A DNA stretch of 64,000 nt. It comes from Candidatus Omnitrophota bacterium (GTDB lineage Bacteria > Omnitrophota > Gorgyraeia > 2-02-FULL-51-18). Shown here in pieces: positions 3,027-26,817 of the stretch. How positions within the stretch are numbered: the stretch's first letter is position 1; each line of letters starts with the position of its first letter. The stretch covers positions 14,464-78,463 of the forward strand of contig CAMDWQ010000002.1 in NCBI GenBank assembly GCA_945877765.1, given 5' to 3'. The notes beneath the pieces were generated by a model. That model saw nothing but the letters and a program-made list of their open reading frames with translations. It was not told where the DNA came from and searched no databases. A program made the position numbers and the translations under genes.

Positions 3027-3034
3027 GCTCACCG

Positions 3035-7548: not shown

Positions 7549-8649
7549 ATGATGCTGCAAAAAAAAACACGAAATATCGGATTAATTCTTATTTTGATGA
7601 CGGTTCCTCTCTTTGCATTGCGCGCGGCTAGTGCCGAGGATGTTAAGATAAGCACGTATTATCCAGCACCTTATGGAAGCTATGACGAGCTTACCAGTGA
7701 GAGTAAGACGTTGCTTGCGACCAACCCGATCACGGGGGTCGCGGGGGATGCGAACGCCAAAGTGGGCATCGGAACTACTGTGCCCGCCTACAAGTTGGAC
7801 GTGGCGGGAACCGCTGGTTTGGGACAGACCTATCTCAAAGAATCAACCCTTCTTTTTAGTGATCCAAACCATGCTTTTACAGCCATTGGAAACACAGACG
7901 GTTATGCGGCGATTGAAAATGATGTCAATCGCGACACGCTTATGATTATGGGGCGCAGTGGAGGAATTGGCGGTGTGCGCTCCGTTAGTATTTATGACCG
8001 GTTAGATGTGAACGGCTTTCTGCGCGTATTCAATGGAGCTTTTTTAACTATCAATGACCCGCTTGAAGCGGCTGTGCAAGGTGTAAATAATGGCACTGGA
8101 TCATTAGGATCGCTAGGCGTCGGCGTCTACGGTGTATATGGTATTACGCATTCCAATAGTTTCGCAGGTTATTTTAGAGGGGATTCTTATGGAGTGCTCG
8201 GTGGAAGCGAGCTGGCAGAGGGTTATGCAGGCTTATTCTATAACTACGCATCCAACTACTTCTCAATTTTAGGCTATCAAAATTATGGCTTATATTCCAA
8301 TGGAGTTGTCTCAGCTCTTAACGTAGCACCTTCTGACAGCAGAAAAAAAACTGATATCGCGACCATTCCAAACGCTCTTGATAAAGTCTCTGCTCTTCGC
8401 GGAGTTAATTTCAAATGGAAAGAGGAGAAGCCTCTGGCGGGCCAGCAGATGGGGCTGATCGCGCAGGAAGTGGAAACCGTTTTCCCGGAGCTGGTCACAG
8501 ACGATCCAACCGGGTACAAGGCGCTTAATTATACTGGGCTGTCGGGCGCGCTCGTGGAAGCGATTAAGGAGCTTAAGTTAAAAAATGAAGCTCTTGAAAA
8601 GGAAACACAACTGCTTAAAGAGCGCATAGAAAAGTTAGAAAATAAATAG
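7549..8649 (+). CDS. Secreted Gly-rich fibre-like protein with C-terminal intramolecular-chaperone (Peptidase S74 / endosialidase chaperone-like) domain
   Basis: Signal peptide 'MMLQKKTRNIGLILILMTVPLFALRAASAE', then a Gly/Tyr-rich region. C-terminus 'SDSRKKTDIATIPNALDKVSALRGVNFKWKEEKPLAGQQMGLIAQEVETVFPELV...ALVEAIKELKLKNEALEKE' matches the tail-fibre chaperone domain consensus. Confidence 0.7.
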   Translation: MMLQKKTRNIGLILILMTVPLFALRAASAEDVKISTYYPAPYGSYDELTSESKTLLATNPITGVAGDANAKVGIGTTVPAYKLDVAGTAGLGQTYLKESTLLFSDPNHAFTAIGNTDGYAAIENDVNRDTLMIMGRSGGIGGVRSVSIYDRLDVNGFLRVFNGAFLTINDPLEAAVQGVNNGTGSLGSLGVGVYGVYGITHSNSFAGYFRGDSYGVLGGSELAEGYAGLFYNYASNYFSILGYQNYGLYSNGVVSALNVAPSDSRKKTDIATIPNALDKVSALRGVNFKWKEEKPLAGQQMGLIAQEVETVFPELVTDDPTGYKALNYTGLSGALVEAIKELKLKNEALEKETQLLKERIEKLENK

Positions 8650-13350: not shown

Positions 13351-14420
13351 AAAAAAAAGAGAGCGGTCGCGAGAAAGTTGATTTTGAGAGGACCAAGCGG
13401 CAGGATTTGGTCGACTCGCAAGCCATTGATGACTCTGATGGAGTGGTAGAGATATCGCTTCGCCCCTCCAAAATTGATGAGTTTATCGGCCAGGATCATC
13501 TCAAAGAAAATCTTAAAATTGCTCTCCAGGCGGCTCAAAAAAGAAAAGAACCGCTGGAGCACGTGCTTTTATCCGGGCCTCCGGGGCTAGGCAAGACAAC
13601 ATTGGCGCATATATTGGCGCATGAGATGGGCGCTAAGATCATGGCGACCAGCGGACCGGCGATTGAGCGAGCGGGCGATTTGATTGGCATTTTGACCAAT
13701 CTCGACGACGGCGATATTCTTTTCATCGATGAAATTCACCGCCTTTCCAAAGTGGTTGAAGAATTTGTATATCCGGCGATGGAAGATTACAAAATTGATT
13801 TTGTCGTCGACAAGGGGCCCTACGCTAAGACGATTAAATTTTCGCTGAAACGTTTTACATTGATAGGCGCAACGACGCGGCAGGGGCTTTTGAGTTCGCC
13901 CTTAAGAGACCGTTTTGGATTTTTATTCCACCTTGATTTTTATGAGCCTGAGGATTTGACCCGCATCATTGAGCGGTCGGCTAGCATTCTTTCGATTTCC
14001 ATCGATAAGGATGCAGCGCTTGAGCTGGCTCGCCGCTCACGGGGTACTCCGCGTATCGCCAATAAACTTTTACGGCGCGTCAGGGATTACGTGCAAGTAA
14101 AAGCCCACGACAAGATTACTTTGCAGACTGTGGAACAAGCGCTGCAGAGTCATGGGGTGGATAAAGGTGGGCTGGATGCGCTGGACCGCAAGGTTTTAAA
14201 AGTTTTGATCGAGAATTATGACGGAGGGCCGGTAGGTGTGGATTCGCTGGCCGCGACTCTAAACGAAGAGGTGGATACGCTAGTGGATGTGGTCGAGCCT
14301 TTTTTGCTTAAGATTGGTTTTTTAAAGAGGACTTCCCGTGGCCGCGAAGCTACACCGGCTGCTTTTGCTCACCTTAATTCCCAAAAAAAAGCTTCCCCAA
14401 AAAATAAAGATCTTTTTTGA
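13347..14420 (+). CDS. ruvB: Holliday junction DNA helicase RuvB
   Basis: GTG start overlapping the ruvA stop. AAA+ Walker A '[13 protein letters not shown]', Walker B '[10 protein letters not shown]'. Confidence 0.93.
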
Positions 14421-15577
14421 TGCGTATTAAAATAATGAGCCGATTATTTGTCGCGCTGTTTTTTTTGCAATTTATTTTTCTTCCGCCGCTTCAGGCGGAT
14501 ACCCAAATCCGTGTGCTGGTCGCTGAAAACCAAAAGATGCTGAAAGTGAATATCCGGGGGGAATACCAGATCAGGGTATTGCCGACGATGCAATTGGTAA
14601 AAAAAGGCAAGGGCCTGTCCGATGCTTGGCTTGTGCCGACAGCCGCTGGCGTGCGGATAGGCCACGAAGAATGGGCTTGCCGCGGCCTGCTGATTCAGCC
14701 GGCAGAAGACCGTGATTTGGTCATAGGCCGCTCAGGTTTTCGGGGTGCTATTTCTATCCTCAAAGATAAAAATAATTTATTTTACGCCATTAATTCTTTG
14801 GATATCGAACGATATCTTTATGGCGTGCTTCATCATGAAGTGGCGGCCTGGTGGCCGATGGAGGCGCTTAAGGCTCAGGCAGTTGCCGCGCGCAGTTATG
14901 CATTGTATCAAGCTGCGGTGAGTCAGCGCGCCGAATATGATGTTAAAAGCAATACCAGCTCTCAGGTTTATGGCGGCAGCACCACAGAGCGCTACCGCAC
15001 CAAACGCGCAGTGAATTTGACGGCCGGCGAGGTGCTTTCTTATCAGGGAAAAGCTTTCCCAGCTTATTTCCATGCCGCGTGCGCGGGTTTGACAGCCGCT
15101 TCCTCGGAGCTTTGGAACATTAGCCTGCCTCCTTTAGCCGGTGGAGTTAAGTGCAGCTATTGCCGCATCTCGCCGCATTACAATTGGGAGTCGCGCGTGC
15201 CGCTGGCTGAAATTGAGGAAAAGTTGAAAAAATATGGCCGTCCTGTTGGGCGAACCCTAAGAATCGAAATCATCTCCCAGACACCCTCTCGCCGAGTCGG
15301 AAGGCTTCGTATTATTGGTACCGCCGGAGAGATTGTTGTCGCCGCCAAGGATTTTCGGGTTTGGATTGGAGGTGACAAGATACGCAGCACTTCGTTTTCC
15401 ATTGAAGTGCGTGAAGATGCGATTTATTTTCACGGCAAGGGGTGGGGACACGGCGTGGGGCTTTGCCAGTGGGGCCTTTTGGGGCAGGCGCTCTTAGGAA
15501 AGACCTATCGCAGCCTGCTGGAGTTTTATTACCCCGGATCGCAAATTGCTCTCAATGCGGCGACAAAAACTTCATGA
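14417..15577 (+). CDS. SpoIID/LytB domain protein (peptidoglycan lytic transglycosylase/amidase enhancer family)
   Basis: Signal peptide, then '[31 protein letters not shown]'. Start is TTG 14417 or ATG 14420. Confidence 0.72.
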
Positions 15578-16650
15578 GTACCGATTTTTTTAATTACGAA
15601 TTACCGGCCGAGCTTATTGCTCAAGAACCCTCGTTGACAAGAGACGCCTCGCGACTACTGGTGATTGATCGTAAGACAGGATCCCTCGTGGACCGCCAGT
15701 TTTCCGACATCGAGGAATATTTGGCGCCAGGGGATATTTTGGCGCTTAATGACACCAAAGTGTTTCCTGCTCGCATCCTAGGAAAAAAGGAAAAAACGGG
15801 CGGTAAAGTGGATTTGCTTCTTTTGTCGCCGTACGAAAAAGCGCTTTCCAAGGCCGATGAATCGATGTCGGCAGGCGCAGCGGAAGAATGGAAATCCAAG
15901 ATTCTATGGAAATGCCTGGTCCAACCCTCCCTGAGGGAAGACCAAGAGATAATATTCGAAAATGAGGCGGCGCGAGCGGTATTTCTAAAGAGGGATTTGG
16001 ACGGCGTGCCAATTGTGGAATTTAAAAATATACGGGATCCTCGAGAGCTGTCACGCCGGATCGGGCACATGCCGTTACCGCCCTACATTCGCCGTGAAGA
16101 TGCGCCCCCGGATACCCAGCGCTACCAGACAGTCTACGCCAAGAATGAGGGCGCTGTTGCCGCGCCTACGGCTGGCCTTCATTTTACAGAGGCACTTCTT
16201 GAAAAAATAAGGCACAAAGGTGTCCAAACAGAGATGCTGACGCTTCATGTTGGTTATGGGACATTTAAACCAGTGGAGAATCTTGAAACTCACCGCATGC
16301 ATACCGAAGTTTTTGAGCTGGGGTTGGATGCGGCGGAAAGAATCAACAAGGCAAAGTTGGAAAAAAGACAAATTTTTGCGGTGGGCACAACCACGGTGCG
16401 CGTGCTTGAGACGTGTGTCCAGAATAATCGATTGATAGCTGGCCGGGGAGAAACAGATATTTTTATTCGTGAGCCGTTTGAGTTTGAAGCCGTGGATAGC
16501 CTTGTGACTAATTTTCATTTACCGAAAACCACACTGCTTCTTTTGGTTGGGGCGTTCATGGGAGAAAAACTCTTAAAAAAGGCTTACGAGCACGCCATTC
16601 AAGAGCGATACCGGTTTTATTCGTATGGCGACGCCATGCTGATTTTATAG
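15574..16650 (+). CDS. queA: S-adenosylmethionine:tRNA ribosyltransferase-isomerase QueA
   Basis: '[19 protein letters not shown]' N-terminus and 'TAGLHFT' motif. ATGA overlap with the spoIID stop. The longer ORF from 15442 lacks support. Confidence 0.9.
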   Translation: MSTDFFNYELPAELIAQEPSLTRDASRLLVIDRKTGSLVDRQFSDIEEYLAPGDILALNDTKVFPARILGKKEKTGGKVDLLLLSPYEKALSKADESMSAGAAEEWKSKILWKCLVQPSLREDQEIIFENEAARAVFLKRDLDGVPIVEFKNIRDPRELSRRIGHMPLPPYIRREDAPPDTQRYQTVYAKNEGAVAAPTAGLHFTEALLEKIRHKGVQTEMLTLHVGYGTFKPVENLETHRMHTEVFELGLDAAERINKAKLEKRQIFAVGTTTVRVLETCVQNNRLIAGRGETDIFIREPFEFEAVDSLVTNFHLPKTTLLLLVGAFMGEKLLKKAYEHAIQERYRFYSYGDAMLIL

Positions 16651-16679: not shown

Positions 16680-17555
16680 ATGAAAAAAGAAAAGCTGCCT
16701 CCATTTTCCGCTGAAATTATTTTACGGCCTCGGTCTGCGTGGCTTTCTTTTGATTGGAACGAATTTTTTCAGTACCAGGATCTTTTGTGGCTCCTGGTGC
16801 GACGGGACATCGTCGCCCGCTACAAGCAAACTTTTTTCGGCAGAAGCTGGTTTGTTTTGCAGCCGTTACTGATGACCATCGTTTTTACGGTTGTTTTTGG
16901 AGGCGGGGTGGGTATCTCCACCGACGGCGCGCCGCGTATTCTTTTTTATCTCTGCGGGCTGCTTCCGTGGATTTATTTTTCAGAAAGCCTTCTTTCGGCC
17001 TCCTCAGCGCTTTTATCCAACGCGGACATGTTTCGTAAAATTTATTTTCCTCGATTGATTGTACCTATTGCCACGGTGCTATCGAGGCTTTTTGGTTTCG
17101 CCGTTCATTTCGGCATATTGATCGCTGTTTATGCCTATTACAAATTTTTTACCGTTTCCGGACAGAGCCTTTTTTTTGGCCGTTTCTGGTGGCTGCTTCC
17201 TTTGGCTTTTTGCCAGACGCTGGTCTTAAGCCTGGCAATGGGTTTGTGGGTCTCTGCGCTTTCGGTCAAGCGCCGTGATCTCCAGCATGCGGCGCCATTT
17301 TTGATTCAGATATGGATGTATGTTTCGCCGGTGATTTACCCGGTTTCGCTCGTTTCCGCTCAATGGCATGCGGCGTACCGCTTGAACCCAATGACCTGGG
17401 TTATTGAATTGTACCGGCACGCCTTCCTAGGAACGCCGTCCTTGGTAATTAATGCCGGCTGGATAGTAACCTCGTTGTTGATAAGTTTTTTTCTTTTGAT
17501 AGGCGGTTTTGCGGCGTTTAACGGCATTCAGCGGACGCTGGTCGACGCTCTCTAG
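16680..17555 (+). CDS. ABC-2 type polysaccharide export permease (Wzm/KpsM/TagG family)
   Basis: Six predicted TM segments and 'RDIVARYKQTFFGRSWFVLQPLLM' ABC-2 signature. 291 aa. Confidence 0.75.
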   Translation: MKKEKLPPFSAEIILRPRSAWLSFDWNEFFQYQDLLWLLVRRDIVARYKQTFFGRSWFVLQPLLMTIVFTVVFGGGVGISTDGAPRILFYLCGLLPWIYFSESLLSASSALLSNADMFRKIYFPRLIVPIATVLSRLFGFAVHFGILIAVYAYYKFFTVSGQSLFFGRFWWLLPLAFCQTLVLSLAMGLWVSALSVKRRDLQHAAPFLIQIWMYVSPVIYPVSLVSAQWHAAYRLNPMTWVIELYRHAFLGTPSLVINAGWIVTSLLISFFLLIGGFAAFNGIQRTLVDAL

Positions 17556-17560
17556 CGCGC

Positions 17561-18724
17561 ATGAGCCTGCCAGCCCTTGAGACGCAAGCACTTTCCAAAT
17601 CATATTCCATCCTGTCGGGTGGAAAATCCGAAACTCTGTGGGCGATCAAAGACCTAACACTTTCAATCCAAAATGGCGAGGTTGTGGGAATTATCGGGCG
17701 TAATGGTGCGGGCAAATCAACGCTGTTGAAAATCCTTTCCCGAATCACCGACCCCACCTCAGGCCATGCGATTTTGCGCGGAAGAGTTTCTTCTCTTCTA
17801 GAGGTTGGTACAGGTTTTCATCCGGAGCTTAGCGGCACCGACAATGTCTATGTTAACGGCGCGATTCTGGGAATGAAGCGTGCGGAAATAAGCGCAAAAT
17901 TTAAAGCCATTTCTGAATTTGCCGAAATTGAGAAGTTTATGGACATGCCCATTAAGTTTTATTCCAGCGGCATGCTGCTGCGCCTGGCTTTTGCTGTTGC
18001 CGCCCACTTGGAACCGGAGGTTCTAATTGTGGATGAGATTCTTGCCGTGGGTGATATTGGTTTCCAAAAAAAATGTATTGAAAAAACACACGACCTAACT
18101 CAGAGCGGGCGGACGGTGGTGCTGGTCTCGCACCAGATGAACCAGATTCGAAAACTATGCACCCGTTGTTTTTGGCTGGAGGAGGGCCGTCTAAAACAAG
18201 AAGGGCCGGTAGCGGAGGTGACAAGCGCCTACGAAGAAACGGCGGTATCAGGCGCTATTTTTCGTGATGCCCAGACGCATCCGTCCGCTGTGCGCGGAAA
18301 GGCAAAATTCAGCGGATGGGAAATCAGCGAACCGGCCCCGGACCCCAAGAGAAGTTTTGCGGTGAAAGCCGAACAGCCGTTTTCGGCGGCGTTTACGGCA
18401 GAGATTTCGACCGAATTGTTCAACGTGATTCAGGGCTGCGCTCTTTACGATTCTCAAGGACAACTTCTTTGGGGCGGCGGCGCCCAGCATCTGCGATTGA
18501 CGCCCGGGCGTAAAAAATTTATTTACCGGATGCCGGCGCTTCCTTTGACGCCGGGGAACTATTATTGGCATGTCAGTCTTTACGAGGGAGAAGAAATGCT
18601 CGACAATTGGTACGCAAAGCCCGCGATGAACGTGGAGGCTTTGCCCTTGAATCATCCGATGGATGTCTGGCGTGGGATTTTAAATTTTCCTTATAATTTT
18701 AAGGTGACCGATGAGACCTCGTGA
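17561..18724 (+). CDS. Polysaccharide ABC transporter ATP-binding protein with C-terminal glycan-binding extension (Wzt-like)
   Basis: Walker A 'GRNGAGKSTLLKIL', ABC signature 'YSSGMLLRLAF', Walker B 'VLIVDEILAVGD'. About 150-aa C-terminal extension typical of Wzt. Confidence 0.8.
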   Translation: MSLPALETQALSKSYSILSGGKSETLWAIKDLTLSIQNGEVVGIIGRNGAGKSTLLKILSRITDPTSGHAILRGRVSSLLEVGTGFHPELSGTDNVYVNGAILGMKRAEISAKFKAISEFAEIEKFMDMPIKFYSSGMLLRLAFAVAAHLEPEVLIVDEILAVGDIGFQKKCIEKTHDLTQSGRTVVLVSHQMNQIRKLCTRCFWLEEGRLKQEGPVAEVTSAYEETAVSGAIFRDAQTHPSAVRGKAKFSGWEISEPAPDPKRSFAVKAEQPFSAAFTAEISTELFNVIQGCALYDSQGQLLWGGGAQHLRLTPGRKKFIYRMPALPLTPGNYYWHVSLYEGEEMLDNWYAKPAMNVEALPLNHPMDVWRGILNFPYNFKVTDETS

Positions 18725-18787
18725 ATGGATCGATCTACTTGTTCTTCGGGTAAATAATTTCATTCGTCTTAAAAGCGACGGTTTCCA

Positions 18788-19669
18788 ATGACCGAGAGTC
18801 AATACCCCTGTATTTCTGTTGTGATTCCCTCATTTAACCAGGGTCGTTTTATTGAACAAACCCTTCTGTCTGTTTTGGGGCAACAGTACCCAAACCTCGA
18901 GGTGCTGGTAATGGATGCAGGCAGCACCGACGAAACTCATGAAATTCTGAGGAAGTATCAAGATAGAATTTTTTGGCAAGCTAAGCCCGATGGCGGACAG
19001 GCAGAAGCGATCAATGAAGGGATGCGTATCAGTCGGGGAGATATTCTTTGCTGGCTAAGCTCTGATGATTTTTATTTGCCTGGCACTCTTTTGGACATCG
19101 CTCGTCGTTTCCAGGGGCATCTGAAGGAGTCTTTTTTGGTGTACGGCTCTGCACTGACTCTTTATGAGGAAAATGGCGTCATTGACGGTGGTTGGAAAAA
19201 TGCCGATGCGCTGGATTGCGTTGCGCTGACTTATGAGTGTACGGTGATTCAGCCCAGCGTTTTTTGGACTCGTGAAGCGTGGCGGCGGGTAGGACCGATC
19301 AACACCAAGTACGACCACGTGATTGACTGGGAATGGTATATCCGCGCTTCCAAAATTGCGACTTTTTGTTCTGTTGCAAAATTTTATTCAGTATTCAGGC
19401 TCCATCCGTTGCAGAAATCGAAAAAGGACGGGTTGTGCCGACGCCGGGAAATACTCGAAGTCATCGATATTTACGCGCCAGACAATTGGAAAAAAAATTA
19501 TCATTTAATTTACAGCCGCTTCGAACGCGTTCAGCGGCTACTAGTTTTTTTTAAAAATAGAAAAAGCATCTCTCTTTATTTATTGTTTTGCCTATGTTTT
19601 CCGTGGGTTGCTTTTAAAATTAAATCACGGCGGGATGTAGGGATTATCCTGGGTATGTTGGAACAATAA
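18788..19669 (+). CDS. Glycosyltransferase family 2
   Basis: 'ISVVIPSFNQGRFIEQTLLSVLGQQYPNLEVLVMDAGSTDET' GT-A N-terminus and 'WLSSDDFY' DxD-like motif. Confidence 0.8.
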   Translation: MTESQYPCISVVIPSFNQGRFIEQTLLSVLGQQYPNLEVLVMDAGSTDETHEILRKYQDRIFWQAKPDGGQAEAINEGMRISRGDILCWLSSDDFYLPGTLLDIARRFQGHLKESFLVYGSALTLYEENGVIDGGWKNADALDCVALTYECTVIQPSVFWTREAWRRVGPINTKYDHVIDWEWYIRASKIATFCSVAKFYSVFRLHPLQKSKKDGLCRRREILEVIDIYAPDNWKKNYHLIYSRFERVQRLLVFFKNRKSISLYLLFCLCFPWVAFKIKSRRDVGIILGMLEQ

Positions 19670-19687
19670 CCTTCTTAAAGGAATTCT

Positions 19688-22243
19688 ATGGAAACTCTTC
19701 CGCTTATCTCCATGGTGACGCCCTCGCTGAATCAGGGCGAGTATTTGGAGCAAGCGATAGTCTCGGTCCTTTCCCAAGATTATCCTCGCATCGAATACAT
19801 AATCATCGATGGCGGCAGCACGGATGGCAGCCAAAAAATCATTGAGCGCTATCAAGAGCGTTTGAAATACTGGCGGAGTGCCCCGGATCGCGGACAGTCA
19901 CACGCTATCAATGAGGGATTTGCTCGCTCATTCGGAGAAATTTTGTGCTGGCTCAATTCGGACGACATTTTGATGCCAGGCGCTTTGCGTCGCGTGGCGG
20001 ATTATTTCACTGCCCAGACGAGCCCTGCTTGGCTTATCGGCGGTTGTGAGATTTTTGATGACGAAAAAAATAAAGTTTTCACACGTTTTGCCCACCCCGA
20101 CCTAAACCAAAAAACCTTGCTAGATTGGGATCGGTATTGTTTTGCGCAGCAATCTACTTTTTGGAATCGCTCGATGTGGGAAAAAGCAGGCCCCTTAAAC
20201 GAGTCTCTTCACTACGCGATGGATTTTGCGCTTTGGATTTCCATGATGAAGCAGGCACTGCCAATAAAATCGAATGATGTTTTTTCGCGGTATAGGCTTC
20301 ACTCTAGGGCCAAGGGAATCGCTGGGGCAGATTTATCTCGCAGGGAGCTGCTGAGCGTTATCCACGACAGCAGCACTCTCGTTGATGGGGGATCGGTATC
20401 GCAGCTGGATTCCAAGACCACCCGCTCACCGGATGTCAAAATTTACTGCTTAGCCGCATCCTGTTCAAGGCATAGTTGGGGCACGGGAATAATTTACAAC
20501 CACGCCGCTATTTTACGAAAAAATGGCTATCCTGCTTTTGTTCTGCATGAAGAGGAGCCATTTTCTTTGGAATGGCTTCACTGTGATGTTCCGGTAGTCT
20601 ATCTCAACCGCATGCAAACCTCGATCAGAAAACATGATTTATTGATTGTCCCTGAAGTGATGGCATCAGACCCTAAAATTCTTTCCATTCAATGCCGGAA
20701 AGTGGTGCATGTGCAGAATATTTTTTTTATGACGACGAATGCTCCTGATAACATTGATTTCTCGAAACTCGGATACGAGAGAGTGCTAATTGCGTCGGAG
20801 CGCATGCAAGACGCCATCGTCCGTTTTCACGGGATCCGAGGGGATATCATGCCGCCTTTTGTGGCACCCTATTTTTATCCTGCGACAACCCCCAAAAAAT
20901 CTCACGCTCGGCCCCGGCGGATCGTGATTTATCCCAAAAATGAATGCCTGGACTATCAAATCCTTTCACGGGTTTTACGCGAATATGTAGAGAATCATTG
21001 CACGGGATGGGAGATTGTCGAGCTGCGCGGAAAATCTCACACCGAGTGGGCCGACCTCTTAAGGGGATCTGCTTTTTTTGTGAGCGTGAACTGTTGTGAG
21101 GGTTTTAATGCCAGTGTTCCTGAGGCAATGGCGGCCGGCTGCATCCCGTTTTGTTATGACGCGTATGGCGGCCTGGATTATCTCAAAGATAACCACAATG
21201 CCTGCGCCTTTCCGAATAATCACATTTATCCGCTGCTGACGCGCTTAACCGATTGGATGGACCGCTATGACAAAATTCAACCACAGTTATTATCGATGCG
21301 GAAAAAAGCTTACAAAACAATGCTCGGCTATCGGATAGAAAAAACTGAGGCGGCGCTGTTGCTTTTGTTTAAAGATTTGATCCCAAAAAAAAGCGTGATT
21401 CCCGATAAAAATGAAAATGCGGAGCGCTACCAGGCGTTTATAAAAATTGCTAAAGACCGTTCCCGGGAGTACGCGACTGCAAAGCCATTTGCGCACACTG
21501 TGCTCGATAATTTTTTTCCAGAGCCGGTTCTCGAGCAAGTAATTAATGAATTTCCTTTGACTGAAGCGGCTCTGTGGCAGCGTTACCGCAACAGCCACGA
21601 GCAGAAGCTTGAGTGGTCTGCCAGCGCTCAGATGGGAGAGGTGACGGATCGGCTGCTAAAGGAGCTTTGCAGCGCCAACTTTCTATTGTTTCTAGAAAAA
21701 CTGACCGGCATTCGTGGGTTGATCCCCGATCTTAATCTTTCTGGGGCGGGGCTGCACCAGGTGGAGGCGGGTGGTTTTTTGGATATACATGTGGATTTTA
21801 ACCGACACAAAACCACCGGGTACGAACGGCGGCTGAATTTACTTTTGTATTTGAATAAAGATTGGAAAGAAGAATATGGCGGTCACCTAGAACTTTGGGA
21901 CAGCGCGCGGCAGAATTGCGTCAAAAAAATTACTCCCGTGTTTAACCGCTGTGTCATTTTTAGTACGTCGCGATTTTCTTGGCATGGTCACCCGCAGCCG
22001 CTCGCGTGCCCCCCAGACAGAACCCGCAAGTCACTCGCGCTTTATTATTACACGCGCACCCGAAATGATGGGGAATCACAGGGAGGCCACAACACCTTGT
22101 TTGGTCCGATGCCGGCACCTGTTAAGAAGAATGCTTTTTTGTGGGAGCTTCTTTGGATGATATTCTCGCCCAGACTCATGAATCAAGCCCAGCGTCTTAA
22201 GAGAAAGTGGTTGGGACCCAAAAGCCCTAAGGACGCATCGTAA
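19688..22243 (+). CDS. Multidomain glycosyltransferase: N-terminal GT2 + central GT1/GT4-like region + C-terminal 2OG-Fe(II) oxygenase (prolyl-hydroxylase-like) domain
   Basis: GT2 'ISMVTPSLNQGEYLEQAIVSVLSQDYPRIEYIIIDGGSTDGS'. Central 'EAMAAGCIPF' GT-B-like. C-terminal 'GGFLDIHVDFNRH...YGGHLELWD...RCVIFSTSRFSWHGHPQP...RKSLALYYY' carries HxD...H and a basic 2OG-binding residue. Confidence 0.7.
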   Translation: METLPLISMVTPSLNQGEYLEQAIVSVLSQDYPRIEYIIIDGGSTDGSQKIIERYQERLKYWRSAPDRGQSHAINEGFARSFGEILCWLNSDDILMPGALRRVADYFTAQTSPAWLIGGCEIFDDEKNKVFTRFAHPDLNQKTLLDWDRYCFAQQSTFWNRSMWEKAGPLNESLHYAMDFALWISMMKQALPIKSNDVFSRYRLHSRAKGIAGADLSRRELLSVIHDSSTLVDGGSVSQLDSKTTRSPDVKIYCLAASCSRHSWGTGIIYNHAAILRKNGYPAFVLHEEEPFSLEWLHCDVPVVYLNRMQTSIRKHDLLIVPEVMASDPKILSIQCRKVVHVQNIFFMTTNAPDNIDFSKLGYERVLIASERMQDAIVRFHGIRGDIMPPFVAPYFYPATTPKKSHARPRRIVIYPKNECLDYQILSRVLREYVENHCTGWEIVELRGKSHTEWADLLRGSAFFVSVNCCEGFNASVPEAMAAGCIPFCYDAYGGLDYLKDNHNACAFPNNHIYPLLTRLTDWMDRYDKIQPQLLSMRKKAYKTMLGYRIEKTEAALLLLFKDLIPKKSVIPDKNENAERYQAFIKIAKDRSREYATAKPFAHTVLDNFFPEPVLEQVINEFPLTEAALWQRYRNSHEQKLEWSASAQMGEVTDRLLKELCSANFLLFLEKLTGIRGLIPDLNLSGAGLHQVEAGGFLDIHVDFNRHKTTGYERRLNLLLYLNKDWKEEYGGHLELWDSARQNCVKKITPVFNRCVIFSTSRFSWHGHPQPLACPPDRTRKSLALYYYTRTRNDGESQGGHNTLFGPMPAPVKKNAFLWELLWMIFSPRLMNQAQRLKRKWLGPKSPKDAS

Positions 22244-24528
22244 TGGTTGATGTCATTATTCCTATTTTCAACGCCTACGAGGCGCTTGCGCGCTGTTTGG
22301 AGAGCATAAGGGCGACCAGCGCCGGAGAGGTCTCCTACCGCCTTATCCTGATTGATGACGCCAGTGAGGACCCAAGAATTTTTCCCTTTCTTGAAAAAAT
22401 GAAAGCGCCTGACGATCTGCTGTTGAAAAATGAAAACAATTTAGGTTTTGTCCAGACCGCAAACCGAGGAATGGCTGTTTCGCAGGAGCATGATGTTGTA
22501 TTGCTTAATTCGGACACCCTCGTAACAGAGGGTTGGTTAGCAGCACTCCAAAAAGCGGCTTACCAGCACCCCTCGATCGGCGGCGCTAACCCGCTGACGA
22601 ATTGCGCTTCTATTTTCTCTGTCCCCGAGCTGTCCGCATTTGCCCAGCCGACTTCATTACAAAAAATAAGCCGTTGGATAAAAAATAACCAGAAGGGATT
22701 AGCGCACGACATTCCATCAGCCGTCGGGTTTTGTTTTTATATTAAACGATGTGTTATTCGCGAGGTTGGGCTGTTTGATGAAATTTTTGGCAGGGGTTAT
22801 GGTGAAGAGAATGATTTTTGCATGAAAGCCAAGAAAAGGGGATATCGATTTGTTCTTACCAACGAAGCCTTCGTTTATCACGAAGGTCACGTTTCGATGA
22901 AGGCCGCGGGTGTTGTCCTAGAGGGACAAGAAGCTTTGCCAGCGCATCAGAACATTATTGATGAGCGTTATCCTGGATACTCAGACATGGTTCAACGTTA
23001 TGCGCACAGCGGCGTGATGCAGCAAATGCGCTCGGATGTTTTACAGGGCTTGGCTTCACAGCTGGGTTTGGGGCGAAAAAGAATTCTTTATTTTCTCCAT
23101 CACGCGGTGGACGGCTCTAGTGTCGGCGGAGCCGAATTTCATGTACGTGGTTTGGTGGAGCAGCTGAAACAAGAATATGTCTGTTATGTTGCGCGCATCG
23201 AGAACAATGTATTTTACATTGATGAGTATGTGGACGAGCTGCATCTTTCCTATGCTTACCCGCTAAGCCAACGACTGCCCTACCTGGCTTTGAGGCATCC
23301 GGCCGCGTTTCAGGCGGCTTGTGAAGTTTTGACGGCGTTCGCGATTGATCTTGTGCACATGCATTTGACGATGAACAATAATCTTGAAATTGTGCATGCC
23401 GCAAAGACTCTTGGCATCCCAGTTTTTTTATCTTTGCATGATTACTATTGTGCCAGTCCTGATTTTAATCTCTCCTACAAATTTCACGACCTGACTTGGA
23501 ATGAAAACCGAAATCCACCGCGTGGTTTTTTTTATGGTCTCTATGGCGCAAGAAATTTTAATGAAATTGCATGGCGCCAAGAGATGGCTGCTGCCTTTAG
23601 GCGGATAGATGAAGTTTTGGTCCCTAGCCATGACACGCTAAATCGTGTAAAAAAATATTTTAAGCGAACCACGAGAATTCGCGTGATTGAGCACGGTGTT
23701 CTTGACTATGAAACCAATTTGCTTTCCTTGCAAGCAGCAAGCCGGGATTCAAAAAAGTTTTCTATTTGTTTTTTGGGGTACACGCACGCCCCTCATAAGG
23801 GAGCCCAAGTGCTGCCCAAGATCATCCCAAAACTTCTGGCGCAAGGCATTGAAGTGCATCTTTTAGGTACTGACGCTGTTCATTGGAAGCGATATCCCTG
23901 GGCGCGGGAAATCCATATCCATGGCTCTTATCAACGCTCTCAAGTGATTCAAAAAATACGGACCATCAACCCATCCCTTGTCGCAATCACTTCCATCTGC
24001 CCCGAAACTTTTTCATACACCCTTAATGAGGCCTGGGCTGCTGGCGTGCCTGTGGTGGTGCCGCCTATCGGGGCTCCGGCAGAGCGAGTACAAAGGGCGG
24101 GTGGCGGGGTTGTACTGAGTGATTTCAAGCCAGAAACTTTTATCAGAGAAGTAATGGGAATGGTAAACAACAAGGCAGAATACAGCCAGCTTCAAAAGGC
24201 TGCGGAGAACATGCGCTTGAAGACAGCTGATGAAAATACTCAAGACTATCGGTATTTGTATGAGTCGTATTTTGCCAGGCACACGCAGGCGAGGCGCAGC
24301 AATTATTCCCCCGTAAACCAATTTAAACTTCAAGGGCAAAAAAAATATTGGGGTCTAAGCGCTCCTTTTGAGGGGCCCAGGTTTTTGTTTGCCATGAGCT
24401 TGTTGCATGATTTTAAGTGGATGCTTGTGCCGTTTGTTCGCCGCTCAACAGCTTGGTTCCTGGCTCTTTTTTCAAAGTCTCAAAATACGGAAATTGAGAT
24501 TTTGGACGGCGACCTGTCCGAAGAGTAA
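22243..24528 (+). CDS. Bifunctional glycosyltransferase (N-terminal GT2 + C-terminal GT1/GT4-like)
   Basis: 'VIIPIFNAYEALARCLESI...LIDDAS' GT-A N-terminus. C-terminal 'LNEAWAAGVPVVVPPIGAPAERV' GT-B EX7E-like region. 761 aa. Confidence 0.7.
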   Translation: MVDVIIPIFNAYEALARCLESIRATSAGEVSYRLILIDDASEDPRIFPFLEKMKAPDDLLLKNENNLGFVQTANRGMAVSQEHDVVLLNSDTLVTEGWLAALQKAAYQHPSIGGANPLTNCASIFSVPELSAFAQPTSLQKISRWIKNNQKGLAHDIPSAVGFCFYIKRCVIREVGLFDEIFGRGYGEENDFCMKAKKRGYRFVLTNEAFVYHEGHVSMKAAGVVLEGQEALPAHQNIIDERYPGYSDMVQRYAHSGVMQQMRSDVLQGLASQLGLGRKRILYFLHHAVDGSSVGGAEFHVRGLVEQLKQEYVCYVARIENNVFYIDEYVDELHLSYAYPLSQRLPYLALRHPAAFQAACEVLTAFAIDLVHMHLTMNNNLEIVHAAKTLGIPVFLSLHDYYCASPDFNLSYKFHDLTWNENRNPPRGFFYGLYGARNFNEIAWRQEMAAAFRRIDEVLVPSHDTLNRVKKYFKRTTRIRVIEHGVLDYETNLLSLQAASRDSKKFSICFLGYTHAPHKGAQVLPKIIPKLLAQGIEVHLLGTDAVHWKRYPWAREIHIHGSYQRSQVIQKIRTINPSLVAITSICPETFSYTLNEAWAAGVPVVVPPIGAPAERVQRAGGGVVLSDFKPETFIREVMGMVNNKAEYSQLQKAAENMRLKTADENTQDYRYLYESYFARHTQARRSNYSPVNQFKLQGQKKYWGLSAPFEGPRFLFAMSLLHDFKWMLVPFVRRSTAWFLALFSKSQNTEIEILDGDLSEE

Positions 24529-24593
24529 ATTTTATAAAGCATTGACACTATTTTTTAAATAACACAAAATGTGAGTTCACAAAGTGAGGGAAT

Positions 24594-25484
24594 ATGGCAG
24601 AATTAAAAACAAATTGGAAAAATCTTGTCAAGATGGCAGTGCAGGGGAAACCTGCGAATCCTTTGCGTTTCGGAGAATTTGAAATGGATTGGAAGGGGCA
24701 AGGACACTCGCTGCCGAGTGTTGGGGGGATTACTTACAACGTAAAGGTGGGCGACAGCGCATTTCATTGGCGGGGTGATCATATCGAGCCGGGTGTGTCG
24801 ATGGTGTTGGATGAAGAAAAAAGATCCAGCAAGCAAAATATGGCACTGCAGTTTTTGGCGTGTGTTGGCAATGAGGCGGTGGTTGTCTCGGGTGCCGCCA
24901 AAGGCGCTAGGGGCGTAGTGGTTGGGCATCATGGCGGCGTGGAGCACATGATCGTCGATTTTGACGATAAAACTCTCAACAAACTGACGTATGATGACAA
25001 AATTTTGATTAAGGCTTTCGGGCAAGGCCTCAAGCTTCTGGACGTGCCGGAGGTTTTTGTATACAACCTAGATCCCGGAGTTTTAAAGCCTTGGGGAGTT
25101 AGGATTTCTGGGGGCAAGCTGGAAGTGCCTGTGACAATGACGGTGCCGTCCTCGCTCATGGGCTCAGGGCTTGGGCACGGCGACCCTGCGACCGGAGACT
25201 ACGACATCACCACACAGGATGCCAAAGCGGTAAAACGCTATGGGTTGGATCAGCTGCGTTTTGGAGATTTTGTGGCCATCATGGATGCGGATAATACATT
25301 TGGGCGGCATTATTTTGAGGGAGCTGTTACGATTGGGGTTGTTGCGCACTCGGATAGCTTTCTTTCAGGTCATGGGCCGGGAATTTCAACGCTATTTTCA
25401 TCGAGAACGCCTGCGATTCGTCCTAAGATTTCATATAATGCTAATCTTGCCAATGTGTTAAAAATCGGAAGATATAGGAAATAA
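24594..25484 (+). CDS. Conserved hypothetical protein
   Basis: 296-aa ORF with RBS 'GAGGGAATATG'. No confidently recognised family. Confidence 0.5.
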   Translation: MAELKTNWKNLVKMAVQGKPANPLRFGEFEMDWKGQGHSLPSVGGITYNVKVGDSAFHWRGDHIEPGVSMVLDEEKRSSKQNMALQFLACVGNEAVVVSGAAKGARGVVVGHHGGVEHMIVDFDDKTLNKLTYDDKILIKAFGQGLKLLDVPEVFVYNLDPGVLKPWGVRISGGKLEVPVTMTVPSSLMGSGLGHGDPATGDYDITTQDAKAVKRYGLDQLRFGDFVAIMDADNTFGRHYFEGAVTIGVVAHSDSFLSGHGPGISTLFSSRTPAIRPKISYNANLANVLKIGRYRK

Positions 25485-25493
25485 GTGCTTGGC

Positions 25494-25650
25494 GAGGGGC
25501 TAATTATCTTCTTTTAGCCAACGTTAAATTTGCCCCTCCGAGGCAAATTTAACTCGATAGATAAGAGCTCGCTCGTCCCCATCTACTACGATGGGGACAC
25601 CATGGCCGCTCGCCTTATCTACGCGTCTAAAAGAAGATAATTAGCCCCTC
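25494..25650. repeat. 157-nt structured element bounded by a perfect 24-bp inverted repeat with nested hairpins (intergenic, hypothetical protein -> tgt)
   Basis: Arms 25494-25517 'gaggggctaattatcttcttttag' and 25627-25650, exact reverse complements. Inner 12-bp hairpin (gttaaatttgcc/ggcaaatttaac) and 9-bp hairpin (gtccccatc/gatggggac), flanked by gataag/cttatc. Confidence 0.55.
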
Positions 25651-25671
25651 ACCGAACACTGGAACCAAAAA

Positions 25672-26817
25672 ATGCAGAAAATTTTTGAAATTCAACATAA
25701 GGATCCTCAAAGCAAAGCCCGGACGGGTGTGTTGAAAACTGCCCATGGGGAAATAAAGACGCCCGTCTTTATGCCGGTGGGGACGCAGGCGACGGTTAAG
25801 ACGATTTCCAATGATGAGCTTCTGGGGACTGGCGCGCAGGTTATTTTGTCCAATAGCTATCATTTGTATTTGCGGCCAGGCGAAGCGGTGATGAAAGAGG
25901 CGGGCGGGTTGCACCGCTTTATGAATTGGCAGAAACCAATTCTTACGGATTCGGGAGGTTTTCAGATTTTTAGCCTGGCTAGATTAAACAAAATTACCGC
26001 CGAGGGCGTGCATTTCCAATCTCACATCGATGGCTCTAAACATTTTTTATCTCCGGAAGATGTCATTCGCGTTGAGCATACGTTGGGCAGTGATATTATT
26101 ATGCCTTTGGATGAGTGTGTGAAGTATCCCAGCGAACATGATTATGTAAAAAAATCTCTTAAAATTACCCATGACTGGGCACGGCGGAGTAAGGTGGCGT
26201 GGGAGGCGGCTGGTTGTAGAAATGATTATGGTTTGAGCAGTATTCTTTTTGGGATTGTACAGGGTGGCGTCTATCATGATCTGCGGGAAGAATCAGCCAA
26301 GGCGTTGGTGGATATTGATTTTCCGGGATATTCGATCGGGGGTTTGAGTGTGGGCGAGCCTAGCCAGGCGATGTATGAGACGTTGGCGGCTACATTGCCG
26401 CATTTACCTGAAGATAAGCCGCATTATTTAATGGGAGTGGGATTTCCTCTGGATCTTTTTGAAGCGGTGTCGCAGGGCGTAGATATGTTTGATTGTGTGG
26501 TTCCCACGCGAAACGGACGCAATGCCACGGTATTTACTCGATATGGAAAGCTTTTGCTTCGCGGCGCTTCCTATATCCGTGATTTTGGACCTATCGAGGA
26601 AGGCTGTGCTTGCTACACCTGCAAAAATCATACCCGCGCATACTTGCGCCACCTTTTCAATGCGGACGAATATTTGGCGGGTCGATTAGCTTCTTTACAT
26701 AATCTAACATTTTTTATACAATTGCTGGCATCAATGAGGCGGGCGATTGAGGAAGATAGGTTCGTAGCGTTTCGCCGCGAGTTTGAAAGTGATTACAACC
26801 GCATAAAGGAGTCCTAA
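25672..26817 (+). CDS. tgt: Queuine tRNA-ribosyltransferase Tgt
   Basis: 'FMPVGTQATVK...LGFPLDLFEAV...CxCxxC' zinc motif 'CACYTCKNHTRAYLRHL'. Confidence 0.93.
   Translation: MQKIFEIQHKDPQSKARTGVLKTAHGEIKTPVFMPVGTQATVKTISNDELLGTGAQVILSNSYHLYLRPGEAVMKEAGGLHRFMNWQKPILTDSGGFQIFSLARLNKITAEGVHFQSHIDGSKHFLSPEDVIRVEHTLGSDIIMPLDECVKYPSEHDYVKKSLKITHDWARRSKVAWEAAGCRNDYGLSSILFGIVQGGVYHDLREESAKALVDIDFPGYSIGGLSVGEPSQAMYETLAATLPHLPEDKPHYLMGVGFPLDLFEAVSQGVDMFDCVVPTRNGRNATVFTRYGKLLLRGASYIRDFGPIEEGCACYTCKNHTRAYLRHLFNADEYLAGRLASLHNLTFFIQLLASMRRAIEEDRFVAFRREFESDYNRIKES

What the first reader, a model, noticed from the sequence alone, without database searches (positions are those of the whole stretch)
16680..24528. 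ABC-transporter-dependent glycan locus with two giant multidomain glycosyltransferases, one fused to a 2OG-Fe(II) oxygenase domain
Wzm/Wzt (Wzt with a C-terminal extension of the type that recognises chain-terminating residues) is followed by a GT2. Next comes an 851-aa GT2 + GT-B-like + prolyl-hydroxylase-like 2OG oxygenase fusion (HxD...H...R/K present). Last is a 761-aa GT2 + GT4 fusion. In known O-PS systems the terminator read by Wzt is a methyl or phosphate group added by WbdD-like enzymes. A 2OG oxygenase fused to the polymerase-like GT suggests a different, undescribed glycan modification or terminating chemistry. No nucleotide-sugar genes are adjacent.
Basis: partly seen in the sequence, partly recalled or inferred. 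Interest (0 to 1): 0.6.

Follow-up and report, generated by a model that had tools for sequence, protein, structure and literature searches.

The report
Glycan export operon with oxygenase-fused glycosyltransferase
This is a five-gene operon for building and exporting a cell-surface polysaccharide, ordinary in outline, except that one of its sugar-adding enzymes is fused to an iron/2-oxoglutarate oxygenase from a widespread, uncharacterised family that keeps turning up in bacterial polysaccharide gene clusters.

Summary

The triple fusion was found only in this organism among 5.8 billion proteins. It is intact in independent assemblies. Split versions exist elsewhere, such as [GT2-GT-B] followed by 2OG, or GT2/2OG/GT-B as separate genes after Wzt.

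The oxygenase family is large (1131 clusters at E<=1e-30). About a third of its immediate neighbours are polysaccharide genes. Wzx flippase loci (27 of 80) far outnumber Wzt loci (5 of 80). Orthologues of the partner GT-B also occur in ABC-transporter loci without the oxygenase. The 851-aa model shows no coiled-coil ruler, and the other GT proteins leave little room for one.

The domain is therefore best read as an accessory glycan-tailoring oxygenase. A new chain-terminating cap read by Wzt remains possible but unsupported. This is a new variant of a known kind, of moderate interest.

The parts
16680..17555 (+). Wzm, the ABC-2 type permease (291 aa)
   Evidence: Pfam ABC2_membrane E 1.9e-20. 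The best NCBIfam hit is KpsM-like and weak. Only 29 nt separate it from the queA stop codon.
17561..18724 (+). Wzt, the ATPase (387 aa): nucleotide-binding domain at aa ~24-226 plus a C-terminal extension
   Evidence: ABC_tran E 6e-20. The best solved relative is full-length A. aeolicus Wzt (8DKU), E 4e-68, aligned over aa 24-349, which runs into its carbohydrate-binding domain. NCBIfam galactan Wzt/RfbE and TagH models hit below their cut-offs.
18296..18613 (+). Wzt C-terminal carbohydrate-binding-type domain (aa 246-351)
   Evidence: Pfam Wzt_C E 9.5e-6, 26.1 bits against a cut-off of 30.4. The extension alone hits the R. terrigena Wzt CBD 5HNO at E 1.5e-4 and the A. aeolicus CBD 8DKY/6O14 at E ~0.05. 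The low-confidence single-sequence model is all-beta here.
18788..19669 (+). Stand-alone GT2 (293 aa), a paralogue of the N-terminal module of the 851-aa protein, with a hydrophobic C-terminal segment at aa 260-278
   Evidence: Glycos_transf_2 E 6e-25. It is 37% identical over 222 aa to aa 5-225 of the 851-aa protein, and has an 'SDD' motif at aa 95-97. Hydrophobic C-terminal segment.
19688..20287 (+). 851-aa protein, module 1: GT2 (GT-A fold)
20435..21382 (+). 851-aa protein, module 2: GT4-like GT-B ('mid' domain), E-x7-E motif at aa 471-479
21479..22057 (+). 851-aa protein, module 3: PHD/Tpa1-like 2OG-Fe(II) oxygenase. H701 (21788-21790), D703 (21794-21796), H766 (21983-21985), R780 (22025-22027)
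22127..22216 (+). 851-aa protein C-terminal hydrophobic and cationic amphipathic helices (aa 814-843), a putative membrane tether
   Evidence: The AF2 model has helices at 816-825 and 828-841. Hydrophobic moment is 0.53 with net charge +5 for aa 826-843. Stand-alone family members have an equivalent basic tail. Analogous to the amphipathic helix of WrtF (PMC12595478). The tethering role is an inference.
22243..24528 (+). 761-aa GT2 (aa 4-216) + GT4 (aa 294-656, E-x7-E motif at aa 588-596) with a hydrophobic C-terminal segment at aa 714-732. Its start overlaps the upstream stop codon (TAATG).
   Evidence: Pfam GT2 E 1.6e-13, Glyco_transf_4 E 2.6e-13 and Glyco_trans_1_4 E 4e-10. Motifs and the 1-nt overlap. 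Hydrophobic segment.
24500..24523 (+). Terminator-like hairpin at the 3' end of the operon, followed by a promoter-like site (24542-24570) ahead of the DUF4438 gene
   Evidence: Consensus scan. The number of terminator-like sites in the region is not above the shuffles, so this is weak evidence only.

Best explanation
The locus is an operon for ABC-transporter-dependent synthesis of a lipid-linked surface polysaccharide, of the O-antigen type, in a bacterium that encodes a secretin and so probably has an outer membrane.

Five glycosyltransferase modules are spread over three proteins that look membrane-tethered: a GT2, a GT2 + GT4-like GT-B, and a GT2 + GT4. They are inferred to build the chain on a polyprenyl carrier at the cytoplasmic face. 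Wzm/Wzt then exports it. Wzt carries a carbohydrate-binding-type domain, which in studied systems checks the non-reducing end of the chain.

The C-terminal module of the 851-aa protein is a catalytically intact Fe(II)/2-oxoglutarate/O2-dependent oxygenase. It most likely acts as an accessory tailoring enzyme that oxidises a residue of the nascent glycan, probably by hydroxylation. It is inferred to work alongside the GT-B module to which it is fused here and to which it is recurrently linked elsewhere.

Shown: domain identities, catalytic residues, fold, operon structure, and the genomic association of the oxygenase family with polysaccharide loci and with the GT-B family.

Inferred: the substrate, the reaction, the membrane tethering, and the lipid carrier.
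For: - Domain architecture and gene order. The stop and start codons of the two large genes overlap.
- Wzt is a close relative of the solved O-antigen exporter, E 4e-68, with the alignment running into its CBD. The extension alone hits solved CBDs.
- A secretin and T2SS-E/F-type genes lie in the window.
- The family is large: 4322 clusters at E<=1e-3 and 1131 at E<=1e-30.
- Among 123 immediate neighbours of 63 genomic homologues, Pfam finds 14 Wzx-type flippases, 9 GT2, 7 GT1/4, 5 RmlD/epimerases, 4 Wzy_C and 3 sulfotransferases.
- Independent fusions of this oxygenase to GT2 (P0152, P0146, P0267) and to methyltransferases (P0141, P0143) exist.
- Split versions of this fusion exist. In L089, a [GT2-GT-B] gene is followed by a 2OG gene with overlapping stop and start. 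In L084, the order is Wzt...GT2, 2OG, GT-B. In L041, L088, L092 and L093, the 2OG gene and the GT-B are one or two genes apart.
- Enzymes of the same fold with sugar-derived small-molecule substrates are among the top structural neighbours (PolD, PasI).
- The fusion is intact in an independent assembly that is 99.46% identical, with 29 substitutions and no indels.
Against: - No substrate or product is known for any member of this oxygenase family.
- The nearest solved structures are mostly protein prolyl hydroxylases (Tpa1, OGFOD1, PHD2, PPHD, PhyA).
- About half of the homologue loci showed no recognisable polysaccharide gene with the simple searches used. Some have unrelated neighbours (L003, L004).
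- The GT-B family is not always linked to the oxygenase. It is absent from L090, L094, L096, L098 and L099.
- No initiating transferase, ligase or sugar-nucleotide genes lie in the window, so the glycan class is inferred.
- The oxygen lifestyle of the host is unknown.
Confidence: 0.55

Rival explanations
1. Terminator reading. The oxygenase modifies the non-reducing terminal sugar, for example by hydroxylating it or oxidising the acceptor carbinol to a ketone. This stops polymerisation and creates the cap that the Wzt carbohydrate-binding domain must recognise before export. The oxygenase would replace the methyl, methyl-phosphate or Kdo caps of known systems.
For: - Wzt has a CBD-type extension.
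- The oxygenase is the only non-glycosyltransferase enzyme module in the operon.
- In three Acidobacteriota loci, a homologous oxygenase lies 3.5-4.5 kb from a Wzt with Wzt_C hits of 34.5, 30.5 and 28.3 bits.
- Known terminator modules are often fused to polymerase GT modules (WbbB and ORF6-O7 in PMC11231755).
Against: - The 851-aa model has no extended coiled coil; its longest helix is 24 residues. The 761-aa and 293-aa proteins leave no unassigned stretch longer than about 105 aa. All characterised terminator proteins have such a ruler (PMC11231755).
- The family is found five times more often beside Wzx flippases than beside Wzt (27 against 5 of 80).
- In L084, methyltransferases are present with it in a Wzt locus.
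- L098 has Wzm/Wzt and the GT-B orthologue but no oxygenase.
- The Wzt C-domains of oxygenase-containing loci are not detectably similar to this one (no WztC hit at E<=1e-5).
- One of the five GT modules could add a sugar cap instead, as proposed for R. tropici (PMC12595478).
Confidence: 0.15
2. Donor-making reading. The oxygenase acts on a nucleotide-sugar or other small sugar precursor, not on the polymer. It would generate an unusual donor that the fused glycosyltransferase uses directly. This would explain why no sugar-nucleotide genes are needed in the locus.
For: - Some homologues sit next to NAD-dependent sugar epimerase/dehydratase genes (L003; 5 of 123 neighbours).
- Fusion to a GT would allow channelling (inference).
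Against: - No sequence-level relationship to PolD/PasI beyond the shared superfamily (E 1.4e-3 and 0.012).
- The conserved cationic amphipathic C-terminal tail of the family fits action at the membrane on lipid-linked substrates better than action on soluble donors.
- There is no direct evidence either way.
Confidence: 0.15
3. Protein-hydroxylase reading. The domain hydroxylates a protein residue such as proline. This could create an attachment site that the fused glycosyltransferases extend, as in Skp1 or collagen. Alternatively it could act as an oxygen sensor that regulates glycan synthesis.
For: - One source annotates homologues as Tpa1-like proline hydroxylases.
- Hydroxylase-glycosyltransferase fusions are known for collagen lysyl hydroxylase LH3 and mimivirus L230 (own knowledge).
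Against: - The gene context is lipid-linked polysaccharide assembly and export (Wzm/Wzt, Wzx, Wzy), not protein modification.
- No collagen-like or proline-rich candidate is in the window. The 1804-aa ORF is 3.4% proline.
- Sequence identity to protein hydroxylases is only 17-22%.
Confidence: 0.08
4. Non-catalytic reading. The domain is a degenerate or purely structural appendage, for example a docking module.
For: None specific. No activity has been shown for any family member.
Against: - Both metal-binding histidines, the aspartate and the 2OG-binding arginine are present and invariant across 40 diverse members.
- The fold is confidently predicted.
- An independent strain keeps the ORF intact without indels.
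Confidence: 0.03

Closest known systems
Wzm/Wzt-CBD O-antigen export with polymerase-terminator assembly (E. coli O9a/K. pneumoniae O3 WbdA-WbdD; K. pneumoniae O12 WbbB; O4 and O7 systems; A. aeolicus WzmWzt)
   Same: - ABC-2 permease plus an ATPase with a C-terminal carbohydrate-binding-type domain. The closest solved homologue is A. aeolicus Wzt (E 4e-68).
- Multi-module glycosyltransferases encoded next to the transporter.
- Putative membrane-tethering C-terminal helices.
   Different: - No methyltransferase, kinase, GT99 or GT137 terminator module.
- No coiled-coil ruler (PMC11231755).
- An Fe(II)/2OG oxygenase module is fused to a dual-GT protein. No held paper links this with Wzm/Wzt.
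Tpa1 / OGFOD1 / PHD2 / PPHD / PhyA prolyl hydroxylases (2OG-FeII_Oxy_3, P4H-like DSBH fold)
   Same: - HxD...H triad and C-terminal Arg.
- Pfam family PF13640.
   Different: - Only 17-22% identity.
- The genomic context is polysaccharide assembly rather than ribosome, translation or hypoxia pathways.
- It forms its own large bacterial family of ~280-aa proteins with a basic C-terminal tail.
PolD / PasI (P4H-fold 2OG enzymes of high-carbon sugar nucleoside biosynthesis)
   Same: - They show that this fold can act on sugar-derived substrates.
   Different: - These are soluble secondary-metabolite enzymes acting on a nucleoside sugar phosphate.
- Sequence similarity is marginal.
- They are not in polysaccharide loci.
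KdoO (Kdo 3-hydroxylase of Burkholderia/Yersinia LPS) and LpxO (own knowledge)
   Same: They set a precedent for Fe(II)/2OG dioxygenases that hydroxylate LPS components at the inner membrane. This is a functional analogy.
   Different: They belong to different sequence families. No Pfam hit to the Kdo-hydroxylase or Asp/Arg-hydroxylase models was listed for the 851-aa protein at E<=0.01. They act on the core/lipid A, not on an ABC-exported polymer.
Collagen lysyl hydroxylase LH3/PLOD3 and mimivirus L230 (own knowledge; LH domains as 2OG oxygenases in PMC5802723)
   Same: One polypeptide combines glycosyltransferase domains with a C-terminal 2OG oxygenase. The logic is to hydroxylate and then glycosylate the new hydroxyl.
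   Different: Their substrate is a protein (collagen lysine). The GT domains and the oxygenase are not orthologous to those here. Nothing here points to a protein substrate.
WrtF and related GT2 modules of rhizobial ABC-dependent O-antigen loci
   Same: - WrtF has a C-terminal amphipathic membrane helix.
- The R. tropici locus has a CBM-bearing Wzt and no assigned terminator (PMC12595478).
   Different: WrtF is a single-module enzyme with no oxygenase partner. Sugar specificity cannot be transferred at this level of identity.

Membership tests
Wzm/Wzt O-antigen-type ABC exporter | ABC-2 family permease encoded next to the ATPase | tested here: met
   ABC2_membrane E 1.9e-20. The two genes are 5 nt apart.
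Wzm/Wzt O-antigen-type ABC exporter | Wzt-type nucleotide-binding domain | tested here: met
   phmmer E 4e-68 to A. aeolicus Wzt and E 7e-52 to TarH. NCBIfam equivalog models hit only below their cut-offs (193 against 400 bits), so it is a member of the broad class, not of a named equivalog.
CBD-bearing (cap-dependent) Wzt subclass | C-terminal domain homologous to Wzt_C (PF14524), a jelly-roll CBD | tested here: inconclusive
   Pfam gives 26.1 bits, below the 30.4 cut-off, although E is 9.5e-6. The extension alone hits CBD crystal structure 5HNO at E 1.5e-4 and 8DKY/6O14 at E ~0.05. The full-length alignment to 8DKU continues to aa 349. The single-sequence AF2 model was too poor (pLDDT 41) for a fold test. 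Homology is likely.
CBD-bearing (cap-dependent) Wzt subclass | Binding of a specific terminal cap, and export that depends on it | not testable with these tools
   This needs binding assays or genetics.
Polymerase-terminator assembly with molecular ruler (WbdD / WbbB / O4 / O7 type) | [quoted passage not shown] | tested here: not met
   The longest helix in the AF2 model of the 851-aa protein is 24 residues, aa 574-597. Pfam domain coordinates leave only 77- and 105-aa unassigned stretches in the 761-aa protein. No dedicated coiled-coil predictor was run.
Polymerase-terminator assembly with molecular ruler (WbdD / WbbB / O4 / O7 type) | A terminator module of a known class (methyltransferase, kinase, beta-Kdo GT99, GT137) | tested here: not met
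   No such Pfam or NCBIfam hit in any of the five proteins. A terminating GT among the five GT modules cannot be excluded.
Fe(II)/2-oxoglutarate oxygenases, P4H/PHD-like (PF13640) | His-x-Asp...His facial triad | tested here: met
   H701, D703 and H766 are invariant columns in the 40-sequence alignment A1.
Fe(II)/2-oxoglutarate oxygenases, P4H/PHD-like (PF13640) | Basic residue that binds the 2OG C5 carboxylate | tested here: met
   R780 is invariant and S782 nearly invariant (R-x-S).
Fe(II)/2-oxoglutarate oxygenases, P4H/PHD-like (PF13640) | Double-stranded beta-helix fold | tested here: met
   [not shown]
Protein prolyl hydroxylases (Tpa1/PHD/PPHD) | A protein or peptide substrate | not testable with these tools
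   Only fold similarity is shown. The gene context argues against it.
KdoO-type LPS sugar hydroxylase | Sequence membership of the Kdo-hydroxylase family | tested here: not met
   No such family appears among the Pfam or NCBIfam hits of the 851-aa protein at E<=0.01.
GT4-like retaining GT-B glycosyltransferases (middle module) | E-x7-E motif in the C-terminal Rossmann half | tested here: met
   EGFNASVPE at aa 471-479. Both Glu residues are invariant in A6.
GT4-like retaining GT-B glycosyltransferases (middle module) | Two-Rossmann-domain GT-B fold | tested here: inconclusive
   Structural matches to 8xsg/8xsh, PimA and WlaC. However, the N-terminal half is modelled with low to medium confidence (pLDDT below 50 at aa 346-373), and the Pfam hits are below cut-off (23.6 against 26.4 bits).
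GT2 inverting GT-A glycosyltransferases (three modules) | Pfam GT2 match above the cut-off, and a DxD-type motif | tested here: met
   88.5, 88.0 and 51.4 bits against a cut-off of 23.3. Motifs are SDD, SDD and SDT at aa ~90-97.

The most novel reading that the evidence does not exclude
The ~280-aa oxygenase family fused here may be an unrecognised, widespread class of polysaccharide-modifying Fe(II)/2OG oxygenases. It would install a hydroxyl or keto group on a residue of a lipid-linked glycan. The GT4-like partner would then glycosylate the new hydroxyl, a 'hydroxylate-then-glycosylate' logic so far known for collagen, Skp1 and base J but not for bacterial polysaccharides. In this operon the product could even be a new kind of chain cap read by the Wzt carbohydrate-binding domain. 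A radical-SAM/SPASM gene recurs between the oxygenase and the GT in four loci. It could be an oxygen-independent counterpart.
Probability: 0.2. Interest if true: 0.75.

Novelty: new variant of a known kind. Interest (0 to 1): 0.5.

Why it matters
Bacterial surface polysaccharides set serotype, phage sensitivity and immune recognition. Their non-sugar tailoring chemistry, as described in the papers read here, runs to methyl and methyl-phosphate caps and O-acetyl groups.

An oxygen-dependent oxidation step built into a glycosyltransferase would add a new reaction type to glycan assembly. It would also link surface structure to oxygen, iron and 2-oxoglutarate availability.

It would give a first functional handle on a family of more than a thousand sequence clusters found across many bacterial groups, including Cyanobacteria, Bacteroidota, Acidobacteriota, Proteobacteria, Actinomycetota, Planctomycetota and Saccharibacteria-type candidate lineages. 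The fusion works as a 'Rosetta stone', pointing to the GT4-like family as the oxygenase's working partner.

If the oxygenase turned out to make the export cap, that would extend the known cap chemistries (methyl, methyl-phosphate, Kdo).

Tried and rejected
1. Searching the 5.8-billion-protein set with the Wzt C-terminal 158 aa alone gave nothing, not even the protein itself. That search was wasted.
2. AF2 of Wzt without an alignment gave pLDDT 41. The Foldseek hits on it have TM ~0.18 and are driven by sequence, so they do not count as a fold test.
3. Two full-length alignments for structure prediction were discarded (A2 and A3). MAFFT stretched tandem-GT2 proteins over non-homologous domains, or misplaced the oxygenase homologues. 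A4 was checked domain by domain before use.
5. The key survey of Wzt-CBM loci and terminator chemistries (Mann, Kimber and Whitfield 2019, Glycobiology) is not held. I could not check whether it lists oxygenases.
6. My greedy gene calling lost the oxygenase gene in 17 of the 80 loci. Neighbour statistics therefore rest on 63 loci.
7. I looked for a collagen-like or proline-rich target in the window. The 1804-aa ORF is neither.
8. I expected the GT4-like family to be strictly linked to the oxygenase after 5 of 6 loci showed it. A metagenome scan then found seven more orthologue loci, of which only one has the oxygenase. The link is recurrent but facultative.
9. A neighbour-joining tree of 87 oxygenase domains did not place this one inside a Wzt-associated clade. 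It branches alone.
10. The organism could not be named. The window's proteins have no cluster mates at 90% identity and carry no names.

Full report
**What is there**

Between queA (15442-16650) and a DUF4438 gene plus tgt (24594-26817) lie five co-directional genes with gaps of 5 to 63 nt. The last two genes share a TAATG stop/start overlap. Pfam assigns them as follows:

| Coordinates | Product |
|---|---|
| 16680-17555 | Wzm (ABC2_membrane) |
| 17561-18724 | Wzt (ABC_tran plus a C-terminal extension) |
| 18788-19669 | a 293-aa GT2 |
| 19688-22243 | an 851-aa GT2 + GT-B + 2OG-FeII_Oxy_3 protein |
| 22243-24528 | a 761-aa GT2 + GT4 protein |

- Base composition matches the flanks.
- No sugar-nucleotide, initiating-transferase or ligase gene is adjacent.
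- The window also encodes a secretin with T2SS-E/F-type partners. The host therefore probably has an outer membrane, and an O-antigen-type product is plausible.
- The organism is an unnamed metagenome-assembled lineage. Even its RuvB has no relative at 90% identity.

**The transporter**

- Wzt's closest solved relative is the full-length A. aeolicus O-antigen Wzt (E 4e-68). The alignment runs through residue 349, well into that protein's carbohydrate-binding domain.
- The 158-residue extension alone hits the R. terrigena Wzt CBD crystal structure (5HNO, E 1.5e-4). It hits the A. aeolicus CBD more weakly.
- Pfam Wzt_C matches at E 9.5e-6 but scores 26.1 bits, below the curated 30.4.
- A single-sequence AF2 model was too poor to test the fold.
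- I regard homology to Wzt CBDs as likely but not proven to family standard. Cap binding itself cannot be tested here.

**The 851-aa protein**

An AF2 model built on a checked three-domain alignment (A4) has mean pLDDT 74.9. Block-mean values are mostly 81-96 across the oxygenase domain.

- Module 2 (aa ~250-565) belongs to a tight family of ~335-aa stand-alone GT4-like proteins (36-43% identity). It has an invariant E-x7-E motif.
- The protein ends in a hydrophobic segment followed by a cationic amphipathic helix (aa 814-843). Stand-alone family members share this feature. The O-antigen transferase WrtF has a similar membrane-tethering helix (PMC12595478).

Neither refutes the observation.

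**Is the fusion real, and is it unique?**

- A word-indexed search of 5.8 billion proteins found the full architecture only in this organism's own cluster. Every other hit covers a single domain.
- An independent assembly is 99.46% identical, with 29 substitutions and no indels. It keeps the ORF intact.
- Split equivalents exist. In L089, a 633-aa [GT2 + GT4-like] protein is followed, with overlapping stop and start, by a 253-aa oxygenase.
- In a Segetibacter locus (L084), GT2, oxygenase and GT4-like genes lie side by side downstream of Wzt.
- Other fusions of this oxygenase to GT2 (P0152, P0146, P0267) and to SAM methyltransferases (P0141, P0143) also occur.

**What the oxygenase family associates with**

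An exhaustive HMMER scan found 4322 clusters at E<=1e-3 and 1131 at E<=1e-30. Most are ~280-aa single-domain proteins. A genome scan returned at least 598 confirmed relatives. The 80 best come from many bacterial groups, including Cyanobacteria, Bacteroidota, Acidobacteriota, Proteobacteria, Actinomycetota, Planctomycetota and Saccharibacteria-type candidate lineages.

Pfam families among 123 immediate neighbours in 63 of those loci:

| Family | Count |
|---|---|
| Wzx-type flippases (Polysacc_synt) | 14 |
| GT2 | 9 |
| GT1/4 | 7 |
| RmlD/epimerases | 5 |
| Wzy_C | 4 |
| Sulfotransferases | 3 |

- These numbers seem far above what I would expect by chance, though no background control was run.
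- A Wzx-like gene lies within 10 kb in 27 of the 80 loci. A Wzt lies within 10 kb in 5.
- Three of those five Wzt proteins have Wzt_C hits.
- A neighbour-joining tree does not place this domain in a Wzt-specific clade.
- The family is therefore polysaccharide-associated regardless of export route.

**The GT4-like partner**

Strong orthologues of module 2 sit one or two genes from an oxygenase gene in L041, L084, L088, L092, L093 and L089. In four of these loci (L041, L088, L092, L093) a radical-SAM/SPASM gene sits next to the GT-B gene; in L088, L092 and L093 it lies between the oxygenase and the GT-B. Seven other orthologue loci lack the oxygenase. One of them, L098, has Wzm, a GT4, Wzt, the GT4-like orthologue and then a GT2, with a methyltransferase further downstream. 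The link is recurrent but facultative, which is the behaviour expected of a tailoring enzyme.

**Interpretation**

The best-supported reading is as follows. This is an ABC-transporter-dependent glycan assembly operon. Its oxygenase module is an accessory, O2/Fe/2OG-dependent tailoring enzyme. It acts at the membrane on the nascent glycan together with the GT4-like module. Confidence is about 0.55 for that function. Confidence that the operon is of the Wzm/Wzt glycan-assembly class is far higher.

- Wzt has a CBD-type domain.
- The oxygenase is the only non-GT enzyme in the operon.

Several findings count against it:
- The hallmark coiled-coil ruler of terminator proteins is absent (PMC11231755).
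- The family is mostly found in Wzx/Wzy loci, which have no terminators.
- The oxygenase is dispensable in related ABC-transporter loci.
- Methyltransferases are present in some loci.
- A GT-added cap is a known alternative for CBM-Wzt loci without an obvious terminator (PMC12595478).

Known caps are methyl, methyl-phosphate and Kdo (PMC9445017, PMC11231755).

Other live rivals:
- Action on a nucleotide-sugar precursor, with PolD and PasI as fold precedents.
- Protein hydroxylation, as the nearest structures are prolyl hydroxylases. The gene context argues against this.

**Comparison with known systems, and novelty**

- The transporter and the GT modules belong to well-known classes.
- The oxygenase belongs to the PF13640 superfamily, but no member of its sub-family appears to be characterised.
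- Full-text searches found no paper that connects '2OG-Fe' with Wzm/Wzt or with flippase-containing polysaccharide clusters.
- KdoO and LpxO are functional precedents for 2OG-dependent hydroxylation of LPS components (own knowledge), but they are unrelated in sequence.
- I rate this a new variant of a known kind, with interest 0.5. It is a clear, testable lead to a new glycan-tailoring reaction, not yet evidence of one.

Noticed in passing
window 25480-25665 (+), between the DUF4438 gene and tgt: A 186-nt element with 34-nt inverted-repeat arms (25484-25517 and 25627-25660, 91% complementary) that enclose two inner hairpins. As RNA it folds to -92.2 kcal/mol, z = -13.1 against shuffles. It is single-copy in the window. 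It has no Rfam match even at E<=1. It may be a structured RNA or a palindromic mobile remnant.
   Followed up: partly
L041 6945-8141; L088 7706-8911; L092 7952-9157; L093 588-1817: A radical-SAM/SPASM gene recurs next to the GT4-like gene in four loci from different sources; in L088, L092 and L093 it lies between the oxygenase gene and the GT4-like gene. The window's fusion has no such gene. It may be an oxygen-independent counterpart or a second tailoring step.
   Followed up: partly
window 34058-39472 (+): A 1804-aa ORF with no Pfam match at E<=1e-5. A short motif, G/A-A-R-L-A/S, recurs at least six times along the protein (around aa 497, 530, 700, 712, 919 and 1472). Its function is unknown.
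   Followed up: no
window 24594-25484 (+): A DUF4438 gene (both Pfam halves, E 2e-56 and 6e-49) lies between the glycan operon and tgt, with its own promoter-like site at 24542-24570. I did not test whether it belongs functionally with the operon.
   Followed up: no
window 55-4246 and 7549-8649 (+): Secretin, T2SS-E and T2SS-F genes (a pilus or type II secretion cluster) are followed a few genes later by a 366-aa ORF whose C-terminus is a Peptidase_S74 'endosialidase chaperone' domain, better known from phage tail fibres.
   Followed up: no
whole window: Gene orientation is strongly biased. 48 of the 53 ORFs of at least 150 aa are on the + strand, and several of the five on the - strand overlap + strand genes. 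Cumulative GC skew rises steadily. This suggests one replichore of a genome with marked leading-strand gene bias.
   Followed up: no
L098 4700-9843: A metagenome locus has the gene order Wzm, GT4, Wzt (weak Wzt_C, 21.4 bits), GT4-like orthologue, GT2. A methyltransferase and a DegT aminotransferase lie downstream, and there is no oxygenase. It would serve as a natural 'minus-oxygenase' comparator.
   Followed up: partly
window 14417-15577 and 15442-16650: The mechanical ORF for queA starts 136 nt inside the preceding SpoIID-domain ORF. The Pfam match begins at residue 49, so the true queA start is probably further downstream.
   Followed up: no
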